Made by a program: the position numbers and the translations under genes. This document shows, piece by piece, positions 2,408 to 8,360 of a stretch of DNA of 15,140 nucleotides. The notes beneath the pieces were generated by a model. The model was not told the origin of the DNA. It saw nothing but the letters and a program-made list of their open reading frames with translations, and made no database searches. The stretch spans positions 1-15,140 of IMG/VR virus record IMGVR_UViG_2698536369_000028. The stretch is one strand, 5' to 3'. The stretch comes from a virus. Its lineage: Duplodnaviria; Heunggongvirae; Uroviricota; Caudoviricetes. The first letter of the stretch is position 1. Each line of letters opens with the position of its first letter.

Positions 2408-2626
2408 ATGACAGCACACAAGCCAGCATCATCAGCTATCCCAACAACTGGATACATCCGTCGCTTTCGCATGCCGGAATTGCTAGGTGTTTCACTGCCT
2501 ACTATTGATAGATGGGTTAAAAATGGCACTCTTCCACGCCCAGTGAAGCTGACAGATAACGTGACTGCGTTTGATGCGGTGGAAATTAATAACTGGCTGG
2601 CAGAACGCCGAAACACATCAGCCTGA
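2408..2626 (+). CDS. alpA: AlpA-family phage transcriptional regulator / excisionase-like HTH protein (72 aa)
   Basis: Seen: IRRFRMPELLGVSLPTIDRWVKNGTLPRPVKL...AFDAVEINNWL; GAGAGG about 12 nt upstream of ATG. Established: matches the AlpA (Phage_AlpA) HTH pattern and the usual int-alpA neighbourhood. Confidence 0.85.
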   Translation: MTAHKPASSAIPTTGYIRRFRMPELLGVSLPTIDRWVKNGTLPRPVKLTDNVTAFDAVEINNWLAERRNTSA

Positions 2627-2700: not shown

Positions 2701-3399
2701 ATGAAACGTCCAAATATGCCCGTACAGGGGCAGGGCTTCGTTCGGCCTGAAACCAGCATGAGCGATATTCTGGTTAGTCACAAACAGGAGTCGCGCATTG
2801 ATTCGCGCTTATTTGCTGAGCGTATTGGCATAAAGCACAAAAACCTTTATTCGCTCATTCAGAAGCACAAAACCGGATTGCGTGAACTGGGCATCCTTCC
2901 GTTTCAAACGGAGCGATTAAAAACCCGTCAAAATGGGGAGCGTGAACATAAGTTTGCCCTCCTGAATAGCGATCAGTTTGATTACATGTGTCGCATTGTG
3001 CGCGGTCGTGATGATGAACGCATGAACCGCTTCAAGCTGGATGTTACAAAGGCATTTGCAAAGCGTCGCGCCGCTGAACCCGTACGCCGCGAATATCTGC
3101 CGGGCTATCACGAAAGCCGTGAGGGGCTTAAAGCACTGGGTGCAGAACGTCACCACTACATCAATCTGGCACGCACAGAAAACCGTTTTGCCGGATTGGT
3201 AACAGGTGAACGCCAGGCAGCCAGCGATCCGCAGTTAGGTTTGCTGGTGGTCATGCAGAAAATCGAGCAGGCAGCATTTCACGAAGCGATACAGAACGGC
3301 ATGACACCGACCGAAGCGGTGCGGGAGGTTGCCCGCCGCATGGAGACGTTCGCCAGCCTGATAACGTCAGCGCCGTCTCTGGGGGTGAAATATGCGTAA
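2701..3399 (+). CDS. Rha-like phage regulatory (antirepressor-type) protein (232 aa)
   Basis: Seen: N-terminal ILVSHKQESRIDSRLFAERIGIKHKNLYSLIQKH. Inference: resembles the Rha-family N-terminal DNA-binding region from memory; not verified by search. Confidence 0.6.
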   Translation: MKRPNMPVQGQGFVRPETSMSDILVSHKQESRIDSRLFAERIGIKHKNLYSLIQKHKTGLRELGILPFQTERLKTRQNGEREHKFALLNSDQFDYMCRIVRGRDDERMNRFKLDVTKAFAKRRAAEPVRREYLPGYHESREGLKALGAERHHYINLARTENRFAGLVTGERQAASDPQLGLLVVMQKIEQAAFHEAIQNGMTPTEAVREVARRMETFASLITSAPSLGVKYA

Positions 3400-4168
3400 T
3401 TATGTTATCCCGCCCAATCATGAAGGCGGTTATATTTATGTGGCGCTTTCTGACATTGGATTAGTTAAGGTTGGAAAAACCAGAAATGTTTCAGCCAGAA
3501 TGAAACAGCTATCCACTGGTAGCGGCATCGAAATCACTAAAGTTGAGGTGTTGGGGCCATTTGTTAATTACGGACAAGTTGAGTTAGCTATTCATGCAAA
3601 ACTTTCATCAGAACGCCGCTCTGGTGAATGGTTTTCTGCCGATTTGGATACGGTTAAAGCAATTGCCATCGACGCATCAAGAATTGGCACTCCAGGTACG
3701 AAGTTAGTTAATAAAGATGTTAACCATCCAATAATTGTTTACTTGTGGCTTGACGCACATGAGAAACACACCGAGTACGAGAAAAAACTATGTGAAATAC
3801 TGTCTGATAGAGCAATTAACTTTCTTAATAATTATGGTGCGCCTTGCGTCCCATATGTTGCTTTATGCATTCATACAATGGGGCAGGTCATTCTTCAACA
3901 AGGCCAAAAGGCCTACTCTGTGTATCCACGAGGATTTGAAGCGTCCTCATTGCATCAATTAAGGGAGGATTGGGGGAATTTTGCAGATAAAGATATTTTC
4001 GAAAACTCTGAATTTGACGAGTTTCTTATAGATATAAGCGATAAAGATAAATTTAAGTCCGCGGCTGAGAAATGGAGGTCTGAGGCAATAAATAATCTTT
4101 TCGCAGAACTTACAGATGATTACCAGCGCTGGTTAGCCCGCCACATGGAGGTGAGCAGCCATGCGTAA
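3392..4168 (+). CDS. T5orf172 (MUG113, GIY-YIG-like) domain protein with uncharacterised C-terminal half (258 aa)
   Basis: Seen: GYIYVALSDIGLVKVGKTRNVSARMKQLS...ELAIHAKLSSERRSGEWFSADLDTV, the typical T5orf172 pattern (GYIYV, KIGKT, R..L, GEWF). Gene is AT-rich by eye; start overlaps the upstream stop within ATGCGTAA. Confidence 0.7.
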   Translation: MRNYVIPPNHEGGYIYVALSDIGLVKVGKTRNVSARMKQLSTGSGIEITKVEVLGPFVNYGQVELAIHAKLSSERRSGEWFSADLDTVKAIAIDASRIGTPGTKLVNKDVNHPIIVYLWLDAHEKHTEYEKKLCEILSDRAINFLNNYGAPCVPYVALCIHTMGQVILQQGQKAYSVYPRGFEASSLHQLREDWGNFADKDIFENSEFDEFLIDISDKDKFKSAAEKWRSEAINNLFAELTDDYQRWLARHMEVSSHA

Positions 4169-4718
4169 ACCTGTCTTTTATGCCGGGCGCACTGAAATCT
4201 CTGTCATTAAATTCGATGACATTCAGGTGCGCATAGTGAGTATCAACGGCGAACCGTGGTTTGTTGGCGCTGATGTGTGTGCTGCGCTGGAAATCAGCAA
4301 TGTTACTGATGCCGTTTCAGTTCTGGATAACGACGAGGTAATGACCCTAGCTTTAACCGAGGGGCATTCCGGTAAGCGTGGTGGTGCCAGAAGCTGGAAT
4401 GTTGTCTCTGAATCAGGTTTCTACAAACTGATCGCCCGCAGCCGTAAAGCTTCCACACCAGGCACATTTGCGCACCGTTTCAGTAACTGGGTATTCCGCG
4501 AGGTTATCCCTTCAATCCGCAAAACGGGGGGTTATGGTGTTCCGTTTGCCATGCTGAATGATTTCAGTAAACGCCAGGCTGCCTATCAACAGGAAGCCAG
4601 CAAACGCGGTTACAGGTTACAGCAATGCAAAGAGGCAAAAGATGCACTGGAACGAGAAGAGCGGGCGCTATGGCGTAAATATCAGCCTGATTTTCTGGAG
4701 GGTGAAAACAATGTGTAA
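4161..4718 (+). CDS. Bro-N domain protein (phage antirepressor-type, 185 aa)
   Basis: Seen: FDDIQVRIVSINGEPWFVGADVCAALEISNVTDAVSVLD...ESGFYKLIARSRKA...FSNWVFREVIPSIRKTGGY, a classic Bro-N pattern. Start overlaps the upstream stop within ATGCGTAA. Confidence 0.85.
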   Translation: MRKPVFYAGRTEISVIKFDDIQVRIVSINGEPWFVGADVCAALEISNVTDAVSVLDNDEVMTLALTEGHSGKRGGARSWNVVSESGFYKLIARSRKASTPGTFAHRFSNWVFREVIPSIRKTGGYGVPFAMLNDFSKRQAAYQQEASKRGYRLQQCKEAKDALEREERALWRKYQPDFLEGENNV

Positions 4719-4765
4719 CGATCCGAACGTTACAGAAAGAAAAAGCGCTACGTTGCTGGATAACT

Positions 4766-4797
4766 GGCAAAACAAAGGCGACCGGGAGAGGTCGCCA
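4766..4797 (-). terminator. Candidate intrinsic terminator for the leftward small-gene operon
   Basis: Seen: inverted repeat GGCGACC (4777-4783) / GGTCGCC (4790-4796); on the minus strand the hairpin is followed by TTTGTTTTG (complement of 4768-4776). No T-run after the hairpin on the plus strand. Confidence 0.45.
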
Positions 4798-4862
4798 GTG
4801 GGAACAAAGGAAATCAAACGCATCGCCAACAATGCCAGATTTGCAGCTGGTGGGCAATGTGA

Positions 4863-5057
4863 TCAGTCAGATTTGGTTCGTTCCAGGGTTTGCAACGAGA
4901 GCTTTTTCCTGTGCTCTTTAAGGAATTTCTCAAGAGCAAACGAACAAGGTGCGAATCTTTCTGATTCATGTTCATGCGCTATATTTTTGCGTCGTCTCTT
5001 ACGAGTTGGTGATGGTGTTTTGGTTGATTCTTTATCGGTCATTGTGTTGTCCTGCAT
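4863..5057 (-). CDS. Hypothetical small basic protein (64 aa or shorter)
   Basis: Seen: ORF with charged, Lys/Arg-rich composition lying between the small minus-strand gene and the minus-strand terminator. No clear Shine-Dalgarno; start uncertain. Confidence 0.4.
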   Translation of the reverse strand: MQDNTMTDKESTKTPSPTRKRRRKNIAHEHESERFAPCSFALEKFLKEHRKKLSLQTLERTKSD

Positions 5058-5099
5058 AGCAATGCGCCTGCGTTCCTCAAACTATGGCGCTGATAGTGG

Positions 5100-5279
5100 C
5101 TATTCCTGCTCTTTGGCCTTCCGGCGCTGTCGGCGTTTGATCTCGCCGCGCATGGCTGCACTTATAAACTGCCCTGTACTTTCGCCTTCTTCTTTCACGT
5201 TTTCCATGCCTTCAATAATTTCATGGGCAATACGTGCAGTTACAGATTGTGATTTTGCATTCTTTGGACCTGTTGCCAT
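5100..5279 (-). CDS. Small putative DNA-binding protein, possible repressor (59 aa from internal ATG)
   Basis: Seen: AAGGAG 6 nt upstream of the ATG at 5279 (minus strand); protein MATGPKNAKSQSVTARIAHEIIEGMENV... Inference: short strand-then-helix layout looks ribbon-helix-helix-like; it is divergent from an operator-bearing promoter region. Confidence 0.5.
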   Translation of the reverse strand: MATGPKNAKSQSVTARIAHEIIEGMENVKEEGESTGQFISAAMRGEIKRRQRRKAKEQE

Positions 5280-5295
5280 GTCTAACTCCTTATGT

Positions 5296-5395
5296 TTTTG
5301 GTGTAAGACAATATACATGAAAAAAAATTATTTTGAAGGGTTGACGTGTAAGACACTGCTATTTTACATTGTGTCTTACACCTTGTTGGTGCAAG
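5296..5395. promoter_or_regulatory. Divergent promoter/operator region with three copies of a 10-mer
   Basis: Seen: GTGTAAGACA at 5301-5310 and 5346-5355, inverted copy TGTCTTACAC at 5372-5381; TTGACG at 5341-5346 with a possible -10 (TTACAT) about 17 nt downstream for rightward transcription. Sits between divergently oriented genes. Confidence 0.5.
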
Positions 5396-5478
5396 GTGCA
5401 GAAACGACGAAACCCGGCAGTGCTGGAACACTAACCGGGCTTCTAACCACCAACGATAGCAGAAGTATCGAGGTAGCT

Positions 5479-5682
5479 ATGAGAAATCATACCACACACC
5501 CGCAAGGGCGGGACTCGCACAACCTGAATAAATACATCTGGCGTTTTATCGCCCTGAGCACGGCACAACCGCGCGTAATCCACATTGAGGCCACCAGAGA
5601 ACAGGAAGCCCGTCAGCAATCCCCGGCTGGCTGCGTGATGGTATTTACTGCCCGCATCCGTCAGGAGGAACACTATGCGTGA
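5479..5682 (+). CDS. Small protein, Icd-like (host cell-division-inhibitor-like, 67 aa)
   Basis: Seen: GAGGT 5 nt upstream of ATG; KYIWRFIALSTAQPRVIHIEATREQEARQQ...VMVFTARIR. Inference: resembles Icd-like small proteins of P4-type elements from memory; unverified. Confidence 0.5.
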   Translation: MRNHTTHPQGRDSHNLNKYIWRFIALSTAQPRVIHIEATREQEARQQSPAGCVMVFTARIRQEEHYA

Positions 5683-5932
5683 TGAACGATTTATTCTTCT
5701 GGAGCAAAAATTCAGCGAAGCGCCAAAAAATGAAATTGATGCTCTTTTGCATATCGCGAATATGCTAAAAGTAGCAACGTTCCTTATAGTTTCGAATCTG
5801 GAGCATGAAACGGCGTTAGATATACTGAACAGTGCTGTCGATTATTCTGAATATATTGCCGAGGATAAATACAGGCAATTACCAGATTTGTTAACCCATA
5901 AATATAAAGAAGAACCCCATACCGGGAAATAA
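5675..5932 (+). CDS. Hypothetical protein (85 aa)
   Basis: Seen: ORF whose ATG overlaps the upstream stop within ATGCGTGA; lies in a same-strand gene string leading to the primase. No recognised motif. Confidence 0.5.
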   Translation: MRDERFILLEQKFSEAPKNEIDALLHIANMLKVATFLIVSNLEHETALDILNSAVDYSEYIAEDKYRQLPDLLTHKYKEEPHTGK

Positions 5933-5934
5933 AC

Positions 5935-6237
5935 ATGAAGAAGATTAAATTTACTGGCTTAAATGCCAGCGGACAGACTCACCCGAAAATCAGGATCGGG
6001 GATATTTTCCGGGATAAATATGGCGACAGTGTGGTTATTAATTCCGTGTATGAACGGCACATTACATACCGCCGCGCAGGGTACGACTATGACTGTGTGA
6101 TGCCCGTTCATCAGTTCCGGCGTGATTTTTCACTGGTATGTGCAGCACCACGCAGTAAGCCCACCAGTAAAGAGAAAGCACGGGCAAATATTCAGGTAAT
6201 AAAGAACATGATTAACGCATTCAGGGGCAAGAAATGA
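5935..6237 (+). CDS. Hypothetical protein (100 aa)
   Basis: Seen: ORF whose stop overlaps the primase start as ATGA. No recognised motif. Confidence 0.5.
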   Translation: MKKIKFTGLNASGQTHPKIRIGDIFRDKYGDSVVINSVYERHITYRRAGYDYDCVMPVHQFRRDFSLVCAAPRSKPTSKEKARANIQVIKNMINAFRGKK

Positions 6238-8360
6238 AACGCGCACCGAATTTAAAGCACCAGCCGAAAGACAAAATGACGGAGGTGATTATCTTTGCGG
6301 GTAGTGATGCCTGGGCACATGCGAAAGAGTGGAGCGAATGGGCCGGAAAGCATATTGCGGCAGATGATACACATCCAGTTATTCTTGGACCGGAACAACT
6401 GGCGAGTCTGGCAGACACGCAAATCATCGACAAAGGGCGCTATTACGTGCGCGTTTATCGTGCTGGTGAAATATCAGAGCAGCACCTTACACAGATAGCG
6501 ACACTGCTTGCAGTGGCGGGTGTGAAGGAGGCGCGTTGCTACCGCAGCTTTGTTGACCAGCAGCCGGAGGACTGGACACCGCGCATGGCTGGACTGAAGG
6601 ATGATGCGGAACGCGGTAACAGTCTGGTGTTCAACCTTCCGGCAAAGACAAATTTCACCGGAAATTATGATGACGAATTAAAGCCTCGTGTTGAAAGTCG
6701 CGTCGATGGTGTTTTCTGGGTAACGCCCAAAGTGGACAAGCAGTCAGGCGAAATTATCCGGCCTGAGACGTGGTTATGTTCTCCGCTTGAACTACTGGGA
6801 ACAGGAACAATCGGCAAAGAGCATTACCGCGTGATGCGCTGGAAAAAACCAGCAAACCATGAGGTCATTACAATGGCGGTCCCGTGCGGAGGCATTGGTG
6901 ACCGTGACGGCTGGCGGTTGCTGAAAGACCACGGTCTTAACGTGACGACCAACGGCAAATACAGAGCCATCCTGGCTGACTGGATGCAGTTAAGCGGAAG
7001 TCATGAGGAATGGCAGCTAAGCACTACAACGGGCTGGCATTTTGGTGCGTACATCATGCCGGATGGTTCGGTCATTGGTGAATCAGAGAAACCCATCCTG
7101 TTTACCGGAAAAACTGCCGCAGTTAATGGCTATTCCGTGGCGGGAACAGCGGAGGGCTGGCGCGATACCGTGGCGCGGCTGGCTGGTGGTAATCCGTCCA
7201 TGATGCTGGGTGTGGCGGTATCGCTATCCGCACCATTAATCGGGCTGGTGGGTGCTGACGGCTTCGGGGTTCATCTTTTTGAGCAATCATCAGCAGGTAA
7301 AACCACCACACAGAACATTGCATCAAGTTTATGGGGAGAGCCGGACGCGCAACGGCTGACCTGGTACGGAACGGCGTTAGGTATCGCCAACGAGGCCGAA
7401 GCACATAATGACGGGCTGTTACCCCTGGATGAAATAGGCCAGGCCGGAAACGCACGGGAGGTGTCCACGTCAGCCTATACGCTGTTTAACGGTTCCGGGA
7501 AATTACAGGGGGCGAAGGACGGCGGCAACAGGGAGATAAAACACTGGCGCACGGTGGCAATCAGCACCGGAGAAATGGACGTTGAAACATTCCTCAAAAC
7601 GGAAGGGATAAAAATTAAAGCGGGGCAGCTTGTCCGTCTGCTTAACGTACCGATGGAAAAGGCCTCGCAGTTTCACGAATACAGCACCGGAAAGGCGCAC
7701 GCAGACGCGTTAAAAGATGCCTGGACAGAAAATCACGGGGCGGCAGGTCGTGAGTGGGTTAAATGGCTGGCAGGCCACCAGCAGGAGGCAAAGGACGCGG
7801 TAAGGGCATGTCGCGAACGGTGGCGCAACCTGATACCGGAGAGCTACGGCGAGCAGGTTCACCGTGTGGGGGAAAGATTCGCCGTACTGGAGGCCGCGCT
7901 TGTGCTTTCCGGTCATGTTACAGGCTGGGATGTTCAGGCGTGCCGTGATGCAGTTCAGCATAACTTTAATGCCTGGGTGAAGGAATTCGGCACGGGCAAC
8001 AGGGAATTTAAACAGATGGTTGAACAGGCTGAGGCGTTTTTGTCGTCGTTCGGGTTCAGTCGATACCTTCCTTATCCAAACAGCGACGAGCGTGATTTAC
8101 CGATTAAAGACCTTGCCGGATACAGAAAGGGGAGTATCAGAAACGAAGATGACGAGTTCCGTTTTTACACGTTCCCGCATGTGTTTGAGGGTGAGATAGC
8201 ACAGGGATTTAATCCGTCTCACTTTGCCCGCGCGTTGAGTGCTGCCGGAATGCTGGAAGCGGGAGGCGACCGCCGTTACAAGAAAAAGGCGCTCGGCAGG
8301 ATTGGCGGGAAGCAGCATATTTTTTACGTGCTGATGTTCCAGCCTGAAGCAGAAGATTAA
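6234..8360 (+). CDS. Replication protein: primase (Toprim-like N-terminus) with a P-loop NTPase/helicase-like C-terminal region (708 aa)
   Basis: Seen: N-terminal TEVIIFAGSDAWAHAKEW...PVILGPEQ (Toprim-like) and a central P-loop-like SSAGKTT. Inference: D5/DUF927-type primase-helicase, consistent with the adjacent iteron origin, SSB and int/alpA backbone. Confidence 0.8.
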   Translation: MKRAPNLKHQPKDKMTEVIIFAGSDAWAHAKEWSEWAGKHIAADDTHPVILGPEQLASLADTQIIDKGRYYVRVYRAGEISEQHLTQIATLLAVAGVKEARCYRSFVDQQPEDWTPRMAGLKDDAERGNSLVFNLPAKTNFTGNYDDELKPRVESRVDGVFWVTPKVDKQSGEIIRPETWLCSPLELLGTGTIGKEHYRVMRWKKPANHEVITMAVPCGGIGDRDGWRLLKDHGLNVTTNGKYRAILADWMQLSGSHEEWQLSTTTGWHFGAYIMPDGSVIGESEKPILFTGKTAAVNGYSVAGTAEGWRDTVARLAGGNPSMMLGVAVSLSAPLIGLVGADGFGVHLFEQSSAGKTTTQNIASSLWGEPDAQRLTWYGTALGIANEAEAHNDGLLPLDEIGQAGNAREVSTSAYTLFNGSGKLQGAKDGGNREIKHWRTVAISTGEMDVETFLKTEGIKIKAGQLVRLLNVPMEKASQFHEYSTGKAHADALKDAWTENHGAAGREWVKWLAGHQQEAKDAVRACRERWRNLIPESYGEQVHRVGERFAVLEAALVLSGHVTGWDVQACRDAVQHNFNAWVKEFGTGNREFKQMVEQAEAFLSSFGFSRYLPYPNSDERDLPIKDLAGYRKGSIRNEDDEFRFYTFPHVFEGEIAQGFNPSHFARALSAAGMLEAGGDRRYKKKALGRIGGKQHIFYVLMFQPEAED

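What the first reader, a model, noticed from the sequence alone, without database searches (positions are those of the whole stretch)
2701..4718. Three-gene translationally coupled operon of antirepressor-type domains (Rha-like, T5orf172, Bro-N) with an AT-rich middle gene
Rha, T5orf172 and Bro-N are all DNA-binding modules of phage antirepressor-like proteins; three in a row downstream of alpA suggests a helper-phage sensing/derepression module or an anti-phage/anti-defence module. The T5orf172 gene is markedly more AT-rich than its neighbours and is flanked at both ends by the same 8-nt start/stop overlap ATGCGTAA (3392-3399 and 4161-4168) with similar upstream GG.GGTGA context, suggesting cassette insertion or exchange at a conserved junction. 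Its C-terminal ~150 residues have no domain I recognise.
Basis: partly seen in the sequence, partly recalled or inferred. Interest (0 to 1): 0.65.

Follow-up and report, generated by a model that had tools for sequence, protein, structure and literature searches.

The report
Swappable early-gene cassettes of a phage satellite
The three genes are the variable "Bro zone" of an E. coli phage satellite (a PICI-type island): the flanking genes and junctions are conserved, the middle slot is swapped between a common antirepressor-like gene and a rare nuclease gene, and this kind of zone has already been described.

Summary
The three ORFs, both 8-nt ATGCGTAA start/stop overlaps, the Rha, T5orf172 and Bro-N domains, the AT-rich middle gene (41% GC against 52% and 50%) and its unrecognised C-terminal half were all confirmed.

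The window is a Gram-negative PICI-type satellite inserted beside yicC in E. coli: int, alpA, Bro zone, Icd-like, DUF927 primase, SSB, captured late genes. Tommasini et al. 2023 already described this region as a dynamic "Bro zone" of domain-swapping proteins.

The predicted variability is real. Only 8 of 5,426 complete E. coli genomes carry this trio. Relatives hold an AntA/AntB gene in the same slot. The breakpoints lie at 3399/3400 and 4123/4124, so a 45-nt tail is shared by both alleles.

Three corrections:
- The identical 8-mers are weak evidence of insertion, because ATGNNTRA overlaps are used throughout this family.
- T5orf172 is a GIY-YIG nuclease fold with its presumed catalytic residues kept, not only a DNA-binding module.
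- The operon does not stop at Bro. The same overlap starts a 323-codon ORF ending in the Icd-like domain, open in 24 of 27 loci, resembling P4 eta/kil.

Function is inferred: AlpA-driven early genes that manipulate the helper phage. The nuclease may be a weapon or a homing gene. I rate it a new member of a known kind, of moderate interest.

The parts
2408..2626 (+). alpA-like HTH regulator gene, the end of the integration zone and presumed activator of the operon
   Evidence: Pfam Phage_AlpA, 26.4 bits against a cut-off of 21. PGAP names it AlpA or HTH regulator in near-identical genomes. The activator role is inferred from EcCICFT073 (PMC6092414).
2627..2759 (+). Conserved intergenic region plus 'leader' (the first ~19 codons of the first Bro-zone gene, MKxxxxPVQGQGFVRPE)
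   Evidence: It is 84-90% conserved in loci with unrelated alpA alleles and unrelated downstream domains. A ~40-nt core is nearly invariant. The same leader heads Rha (window), Ant825 (L003) and GIY-YIG (L009, P0001/2/4/5).
2701..3399 (+). Rha-domain gene (232 aa), slot 1
   Evidence: Pfam Phage_pRha residues 33-120; phrog_2657 and phrog_518. This allele is 98.7% identical to that of a tRNA-Gly-site PICI (L006). It is only 91.8% identical to that of the otherwise identical yicC-site element L007.
3392..3399 (+). Junction J1: ATGCGTAA, Rha stop overlapping the GIY start
   Evidence: It reads ATGCTTAA where the slot holds Ant. It is a recombination breakpoint in two independent comparisons.
3392..4168 (+). 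GIY-YIG/T5orf172 nuclease gene with an orphan C-terminal domain (258 aa), slot 2
3400..4123 (+). Exchangeable cassette core (GIY-YIG allele), 41% GC
   Evidence: No similarity to L002, L003, L004 or L006, which carry AntA/AntB here. Present in 23 of 5,426 E. coli genomes, single copy. It is 100% identical in 8 of them.
4124..4168 (+). Shared 45-nt tail (..QRWLARxMEVSSHA) containing the Shine-Dalgarno sequence for Bro
   Evidence: 95.6-100% identical whether the core is GIY or Ant. An RME(A/V) tail with GGAGG is also kept in the Xenorhabdus homolog.
4161..4718 (+). Bro-N gene (185 aa), slot 3; intact here
   Evidence: Pfam Bro-N at 5e-18; phrog_2593 at 4.5e-55. 43 of 5,426 genomes match at least 80% of the Bro segment 4169-4710. 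It is absent exactly between ATGCGTAA and ATGTGTAA in L004.
4525..4530 (+). G6 tract in Bro, just after the Bro-N domain
   Evidence: It is G7 in L001 and L007, giving a frameshift. L003 has a nonsense codon at position 139, and the L022 copy stops at the same length (138 aa).
4711..5682 (+). Fourth coupled ORF (323 codons). It starts in ATGTGTAA (junction J3), crosses the antisense genes and a promoter region, and ends in the Icd-like domain.
   Evidence: 0 stops in the 256 codons before the short Icd start, against 10 and 14 in the other two frames; 0 of 20,000 shuffles are stop-free. It is open and in frame with the Icd motif in 24 of 27 loci, as 22 distinct sequences of 249-533 aa. NCBIfam phage_ICD_like matches residues 275-318.
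4863..5042 (-). Small reverse-strand gene (59 aa)
   Evidence: phrog_21027 at 5e-16. Annotated in L001. A minus-strand terminator-like hairpin lies at 4796-4777.
5100..5279 (-). YlcI/YnfO-family gene (59 aa), divergent from the replication operon
   Evidence: NCBIfam YlcI_YnfO_N, 66 bits; phrog_949. Promoter-like sites lie at 5337-5310 (-) and 5341-5370 (+).
5479..5682 (+). Short Icd-like product (67 aa) nested in the long ORF
   Evidence: It has its own ATG with an upstream GAGG. It has the same length as the PGAP Icd-like gene in L003. phrog_6196.
5675..8360 (+). Continuation of the chain: 85-aa ORF (junction J4, ATGCGTGA), DUF4222 gene, DUF927 primase-helicase gene (ATGA overlap)

Best explanation
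What it is. Region 2701-4718 is the 'Bro zone' of a Gram-negative PICI-type phage satellite integrated next to yicC in E. coli.

How it is built (shown). It is a row of slots placed directly after alpA. Each slot holds a nucleic-acid-interacting module: Rha in slot 1, GIY-YIG or AntA/AntB in slot 2, Bro-N in slot 3. The modules sit between short conserved adaptor segments:
- a ~19-codon leader on the first gene;
- a 15-codon tail carrying the next gene's ribosome-binding site;
- 8-nt ATGNNTRA start/stop overlaps at each junction.

How it varies (shown). Recombination among PICIs exchanges whole modules at these adaptors. The window carries a rare combination: the common AntA/AntB core in slot 2 is replaced by an AT-rich GIY-YIG (T5orf172) nuclease fused to an orphan ~150-residue C-terminal domain.

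How it is probably expressed (inferred). I extrapolate from EcCICFT073 and from the eta/kil genes of satellite P4.
1. A helper phage switches on alpA.
2. AlpA drives one long early transcript.
3. Ribosomes re-initiate at each overlap and translate without a gap: Rha, GIY, Bro, then a 323-codon ORF that runs across the antisense YlcI/YnfO immunity-like region into the Icd-like domain, then on to the primase.
4. This continuous translation would protect the transcript from polarity or termination.

What the proteins probably do (inferred). They act on helper-phage or rival-element DNA or regulators. The nuclease most likely cuts a specific foreign or allelic DNA target recognised by its C-terminal domain.
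For: Element identity:
- Gene order is int, alpA, Rha/T5orf172/Bro-N, Icd-like, DUF4222, DUF927 primase, SSB, ProQ, PerC, then phage head/ejection-like genes.
- It sits beside yicC in many E. coli genomes.
- The four-zone PICI plan with a dynamic Bro zone is published (PMC10111431).

Variability:
- 690 genomes match part of the region, but only 8 match all of it.
- Observed variants are Rha-Ant-Bro, Ant-Bro, Rha-Ant, Rha-GIY-longORF and GIY alone.
- Breakpoints lie at 2759/2760, 3399/3400, 4123/4124 and 4168/4711.
- Only the 20-residue tail is shared between GIY and Ant proteins (hhalign).
- Segment-wise mosaicism is clear.

Coupling is the house style of this family: 3-5 consecutive ATGNNTRA junctions occur in each of 19 IMG/VR loci, and four occur in the window.

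The long ORF is under selection to stay open. In relatives it contains the Rfam families C4 and isrK, as in P1 and P4 immunity regions.

Nuclease:
- Pfam domain match.
- Fold matches to SLX1/HIGLE and to viral T5orf172 proteins.
- R36 and E79 are invariant across the family.
- A T5orf172 protein, Odn, is a proven site-specific nuclease that depends on its catalytic Glu (PMC8263062).

The GIY family is satellite-specific. The Xenorhabdus homolog sits between a small ORF and Ash, upstream of a D5-type primase.

AlpA activates itself and downstream genes and is switched on by helper phages in EcCICFT073 (PMC6092414).
Against: - No expression, binding or cleavage data exist for any of these proteins.
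- AlpA control and read-through translation are extrapolated from EcCICFT073 and P4. No promoter or AlpA site was mapped here, and the promoter and terminator scans are at chance level.
- The window lacks the C4/isrK RNA seen in relatives, so the analogy with P4 immunity is incomplete.
- The long ORF product has a non-protein-like composition and overlaps real reverse-strand genes, so its translation is inferred only from frame conservation.
- Bro is truncated in several close relatives. Either slot 3 is dispensable or some assemblies carry homopolymer errors.
Confidence: 0.62

Rival explanations
1. The middle gene is a selfish homing endonuclease gene. It cuts the nuclease-free allele (for example the AntA/AntB allele or its junction) in a co-resident or incoming related satellite. 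Repair then copies the gene in. Under this reading its presence says little about satellite function.
For: - Domain layout matches free-standing GIY-YIG homing enzymes: N-terminal catalytic domain plus a C-terminal extension.
- It is AT-rich relative to its neighbours.
- It is rare and patchy: 23 of 5,426 genomes, single copy.
- It occurs in at least three different satellite backbones and in either slot 1 or slot 2.
- The cassette is 100% identical in 8 genomes, although the adjacent Rha gene differs by 8.4% between two of them. The switch occurs at the junction.
- T5orf172 homing genes mark recombination boundaries in phages (PMC10448857).
Against: - It replaces another gene of equal size in frame, using the host operon's leader, tail and coupling signals. 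It is not an insertion with its own expression signals.
- To the right of the cassette the sequence stays 100% identical for about 2 kb. The pattern therefore fits a single Rha-allele swap as well as it fits co-conversion.
- Copies in different backbones differ by 4-14%, so spread is not recent.
- The family is conserved down to 37-41% identity in other genera, always in the same satellite position. This suggests a retained function.
Confidence: 0.25
2. One reading: the three proteins are antirepressors that bind the repressor of a resident helper prophage and induce it, as P4 epsilon/Ash or P22 Ant do. Three modules would widen the range of helpers.
For: - Satellites do encode helper derepressors (P4 epsilon, Ash). 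Ash genes sit in the same zone of related elements (L010, L011, L012).
- The slot-2 alternative is an AntA/AntB-family gene.
- PHROG annotates Bro-N relatives as 'anti-repressor'.
- The P1 immI operon combines C4 RNA, Icd and Ant, the same parts list seen in relatives.
Against: - None of the three window proteins has an ANT, KilAC or P22_AR domain.
- Rha and Bro-N are DNA-binding folds, and T5orf172 is a nuclease fold.
- In EcCICFT073, alpA expression depends on an already induced helper (PMC6092414). Genes downstream of alpA would then be made too late to induce that helper.
- No experimental link exists between PICI Bro-zone genes and induction.
Confidence: 0.2
3. The module is an anti-phage defence or abortive-infection system carried by the satellite, with the GIY-YIG protein as the effector nuclease.
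For: - Weak PADLOC match of the nuclease domain to candidate system PDC-S57 (9e-08, N-domain only).
- Satellites often carry defence genes (PMC9122126 and PMC13612085, listed).
Against: - No PADLOC match for Rha, Bro or the C-terminal domain.
- The genes lie in the regulatory early zone, not in the accessory hotspot at the far end of such elements.
- The slot's common occupant is an Ant-family gene.
- The domain match is generic to T5orf172.
Confidence: 0.1
4. The GIY-YIG protein is a domesticated, non-cutting DNA-binding regulator. It would act like the PLE protein CapR, which derives from homing endonucleases and represses helper late or capsid promoters.
For: - Precedent in PLE CapR (PMC8096241).
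- Bro-network proteins often act as regulators (PMC10111431).
- The neighbouring genes are regulator-like.
Against: - CapR corresponds to the DNA-binding domain of such enzymes, not to the T5orf172 domain.
- Here the T5orf172 domain keeps its invariant Tyr, Arg and Glu. That argues for retained catalysis.
Confidence: 0.15

Closest known systems
Bro zone of Gram-negative PICIs (Tommasini, Mageeney & Williams 2023, PMC10111431)
   Same: Same position, between the int/alpA zone and the replication zone. Same content type (Phage_pRha, Bro-N and AntA network proteins). Same dynamism and domain swapping among related islands. Association with Icd, C4 and isrK immunity elements in relatives.
   Different: That paper lists no T5orf172 or GIY-YIG member; both terms have zero occurrences in it. 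It does not describe the leader and tail adaptors, the systematic 8-nt overlaps, or the conserved long ORF through the YlcI/YnfO region. The window itself has no C4 or isrK RNA.
ICP1 Odn and other T5orf172 nucleases in phage-satellite conflict (Barth 2021 PMC8263062; Barth 2023 PMC10448857)
   Same: A T5orf172 nuclease domain that keeps its conserved Arg and Glu, fused to a swappable second domain and sitting at a boundary of genetic exchange. In ICP1 the odn/CRISPR locus is also flanked by Rha or Bro-N genes.
   Different: Odn is phage-encoded, has the DNA-binding domain at the N-terminus (RepA_N), and targets the satellite origin. Here the gene is satellite-encoded, the nuclease domain is N-terminal, and the partner domain is an orphan with an unknown target.
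Satellite P4 eta/kil nested genes and the CI immunity region (as summarised in PMC10111431; primary papers recalled from memory, not read here)
   Same: A long ORF downstream of the alpA homolog that is translationally coupled to upstream genes. It contains an internal promoter and a short toxic or division-inhibiting product. Its translation allows read-through into the replication genes.
   Different: Here the coupling runs through up to three extra cassettes. The immunity-like region holds reverse-strand protein genes (YlcI/YnfO) instead of a detectable CI/C4 RNA. No experiment has been done.
Free-standing GIY-YIG homing endonucleases of T-even phages (Seg proteins, I-TevI; general knowledge)
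   Same: N-terminal GIY-YIG catalytic domain with a C-terminal extension, located between conserved genes, patchy distribution, AT-rich.
   Different: The gene is an in-frame allelic replacement inside a coupled operon rather than an insertion. The C-terminal domain has no recognisable zinc-finger or HTH module, and no cleavage site is known.
P1/P7 immI operon (c4 RNA - icd - ant; general knowledge)
   Same: Same components in related PICIs: C4 RNA, Icd-like peptide and Ant-family protein, with translational coupling.
   Different: The order is reversed (Ant-type genes come first, Icd last). The window variant lacks C4 and has a nuclease in place of Ant.

Membership tests
Gram-negative PICI-type satellite | Tyrosine integrase at one end, followed by an alpA-family regulator | tested here: met
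   Pfam Arm-DNA-bind_3, Phage_int_M and Phage_integrase on 1-1269; Phage_AlpA on 2408-2626.
Gram-negative PICI-type satellite | Own primase/replicase (pri-rep) module | tested here: met
   DUF927 at 1.7e-46 and phrog_1139 DNA primase at 5.8e-174 on 6234-8360, followed by SSB.
Gram-negative PICI-type satellite | Small size (about 10-18 kb) and no complete set of phage structural and lysis genes | tested here: inconclusive
   The window is cut at its right end. The downstream genes are a phrog_992 head protein with a transglycosylase part and a phrog_1145 protein. In L001 the element ends at an IS about 17 kb from int.
Gram-negative PICI-type satellite | Induction by, and packaging into particles of, a helper phage | not testable with these tools
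   Requires experiments. The precedent is EcCICFT073 (PMC6092414).
PICI Bro zone (PMC10111431) | Lies between the integration and replication zones and encodes Bro-network domains | tested here: met
   Phage_pRha and Bro-N hits at 2701-4718, between alpA and the primase.
PICI Bro zone (PMC10111431) | Gene content varies by module swapping among otherwise related islands | tested here: met
   Five architectures share int, alpA and primase at 98-100% identity.
PICI Bro zone (PMC10111431) | Immunity RNA (Rfam C4 / isrK) within the zone (a feature of some members only) | tested here: not met
   No match in the window at E<=0.1. Present in relatives L005 and L011.
GIY-YIG / T5orf172 nuclease superfamily | Sequence match to the domain model above the curated threshold | tested here: met
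   MUG113, 46.9 bits (cut-off 22.3); T5orf172, 42.3 bits (cut-off 20).
GIY-YIG / T5orf172 nuclease superfamily | GIY-YIG fold | tested here: met
GIY-YIG / T5orf172 nuclease superfamily | Conserved Tyr, Arg and Glu of the active site | tested here: met
   Y16, R36 and E79 are invariant in the 10-sequence family alignment. Their assignment to catalytic positions rests on motif order (GYIY..KVGKT..R..GEWF) and on Odn (PMC8263062), not on a structure superposition of side chains.
GIY-YIG / T5orf172 nuclease superfamily | DNA cleavage activity | not testable with these tools
   Needs purified protein.
Homing endonuclease gene | Presence/absence polymorphism at a fixed site in otherwise homologous genomes | tested here: inconclusive
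   The site is fixed, but the alternative state is a different gene (Ant), not an empty site.
Homing endonuclease gene | Co-conversion gradient of flanking sequence around the gene | tested here: inconclusive
   There is a sharp identity switch on the left at J1 but none on the right for more than 2 kb. Too few independent genomes were compared.
Homing endonuclease gene | Cleaves the cognate nuclease-free allele | not testable with these tools
   Needs an in vitro cleavage assay.
Ant-type antirepressor (P22 Ant / P1 Ant) | ANT, KilAC, P22_AR or AntA domain | tested here: not met
   No such Pfam hit on any of the three window proteins at E<=0.01. The AntA/AntB gene is present only in relatives.
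Ant-type antirepressor (P22 Ant / P1 Ant) | Binds and inactivates a phage repressor | not testable with these tools
   Needs interaction and induction assays.
P4 eta/kil-type nested translation control | Long ORF coupled to upstream genes, containing an internal promoter and a short C-terminal product | tested here: met
   ATGTGTAA coupling at 4711. The frame is open for 323 codons and conserved in 24 of 27 loci. A promoter-like site lies at 5341-5370 (the scan is at chance level). The short Icd-like ORF is 5479-5682.
P4 eta/kil-type nested translation control | Translation of the long ORF suppresses termination | not testable with these tools
   Needs reporter fusions with and without stop codons.

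The most novel reading that the evidence does not exclude
The slot-2 protein is a satellite-encoded, target-specific nuclease, a mirror image of the phage nuclease Odn. Its orphan C-terminal domain would be a previously unseen DNA-recognition fold that directs the GIY-YIG domain to a site in the helper phage, a competing phage or a rival satellite. The leader, tail and 8-nt adaptors would form a plug-and-play system that lets satellites exchange such weapons and regulators in frame. Obligatory ribosome transit through the long Icd-terminal ORF would act as the switch that licenses replication.
Probability: 0.25. Interest if true: 0.65.

Novelty: new member of a known kind. Interest (0 to 1): 0.42.

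Why it matters
Gram-negative PICIs are common in E. coli, yet nobody knows what the genes directly behind alpA do. This locus gives a clean natural experiment. Near-identical satellites differ only in one slot, nuclease or Ant-family protein, and sometimes in whether Bro is intact.

Comparing such strains, or swapping cassettes at the mapped breakpoints, could show how satellites choose, provoke or damage their helpers. It could also show whether T5orf172 nucleases are used by satellites as well as against them.

The conserved adaptors and the always-open ORF across the immunity-like region are testable regulatory features. They may apply to hundreds of islands.

If it is only a homing gene sitting in a known variable zone, the interest is modest.

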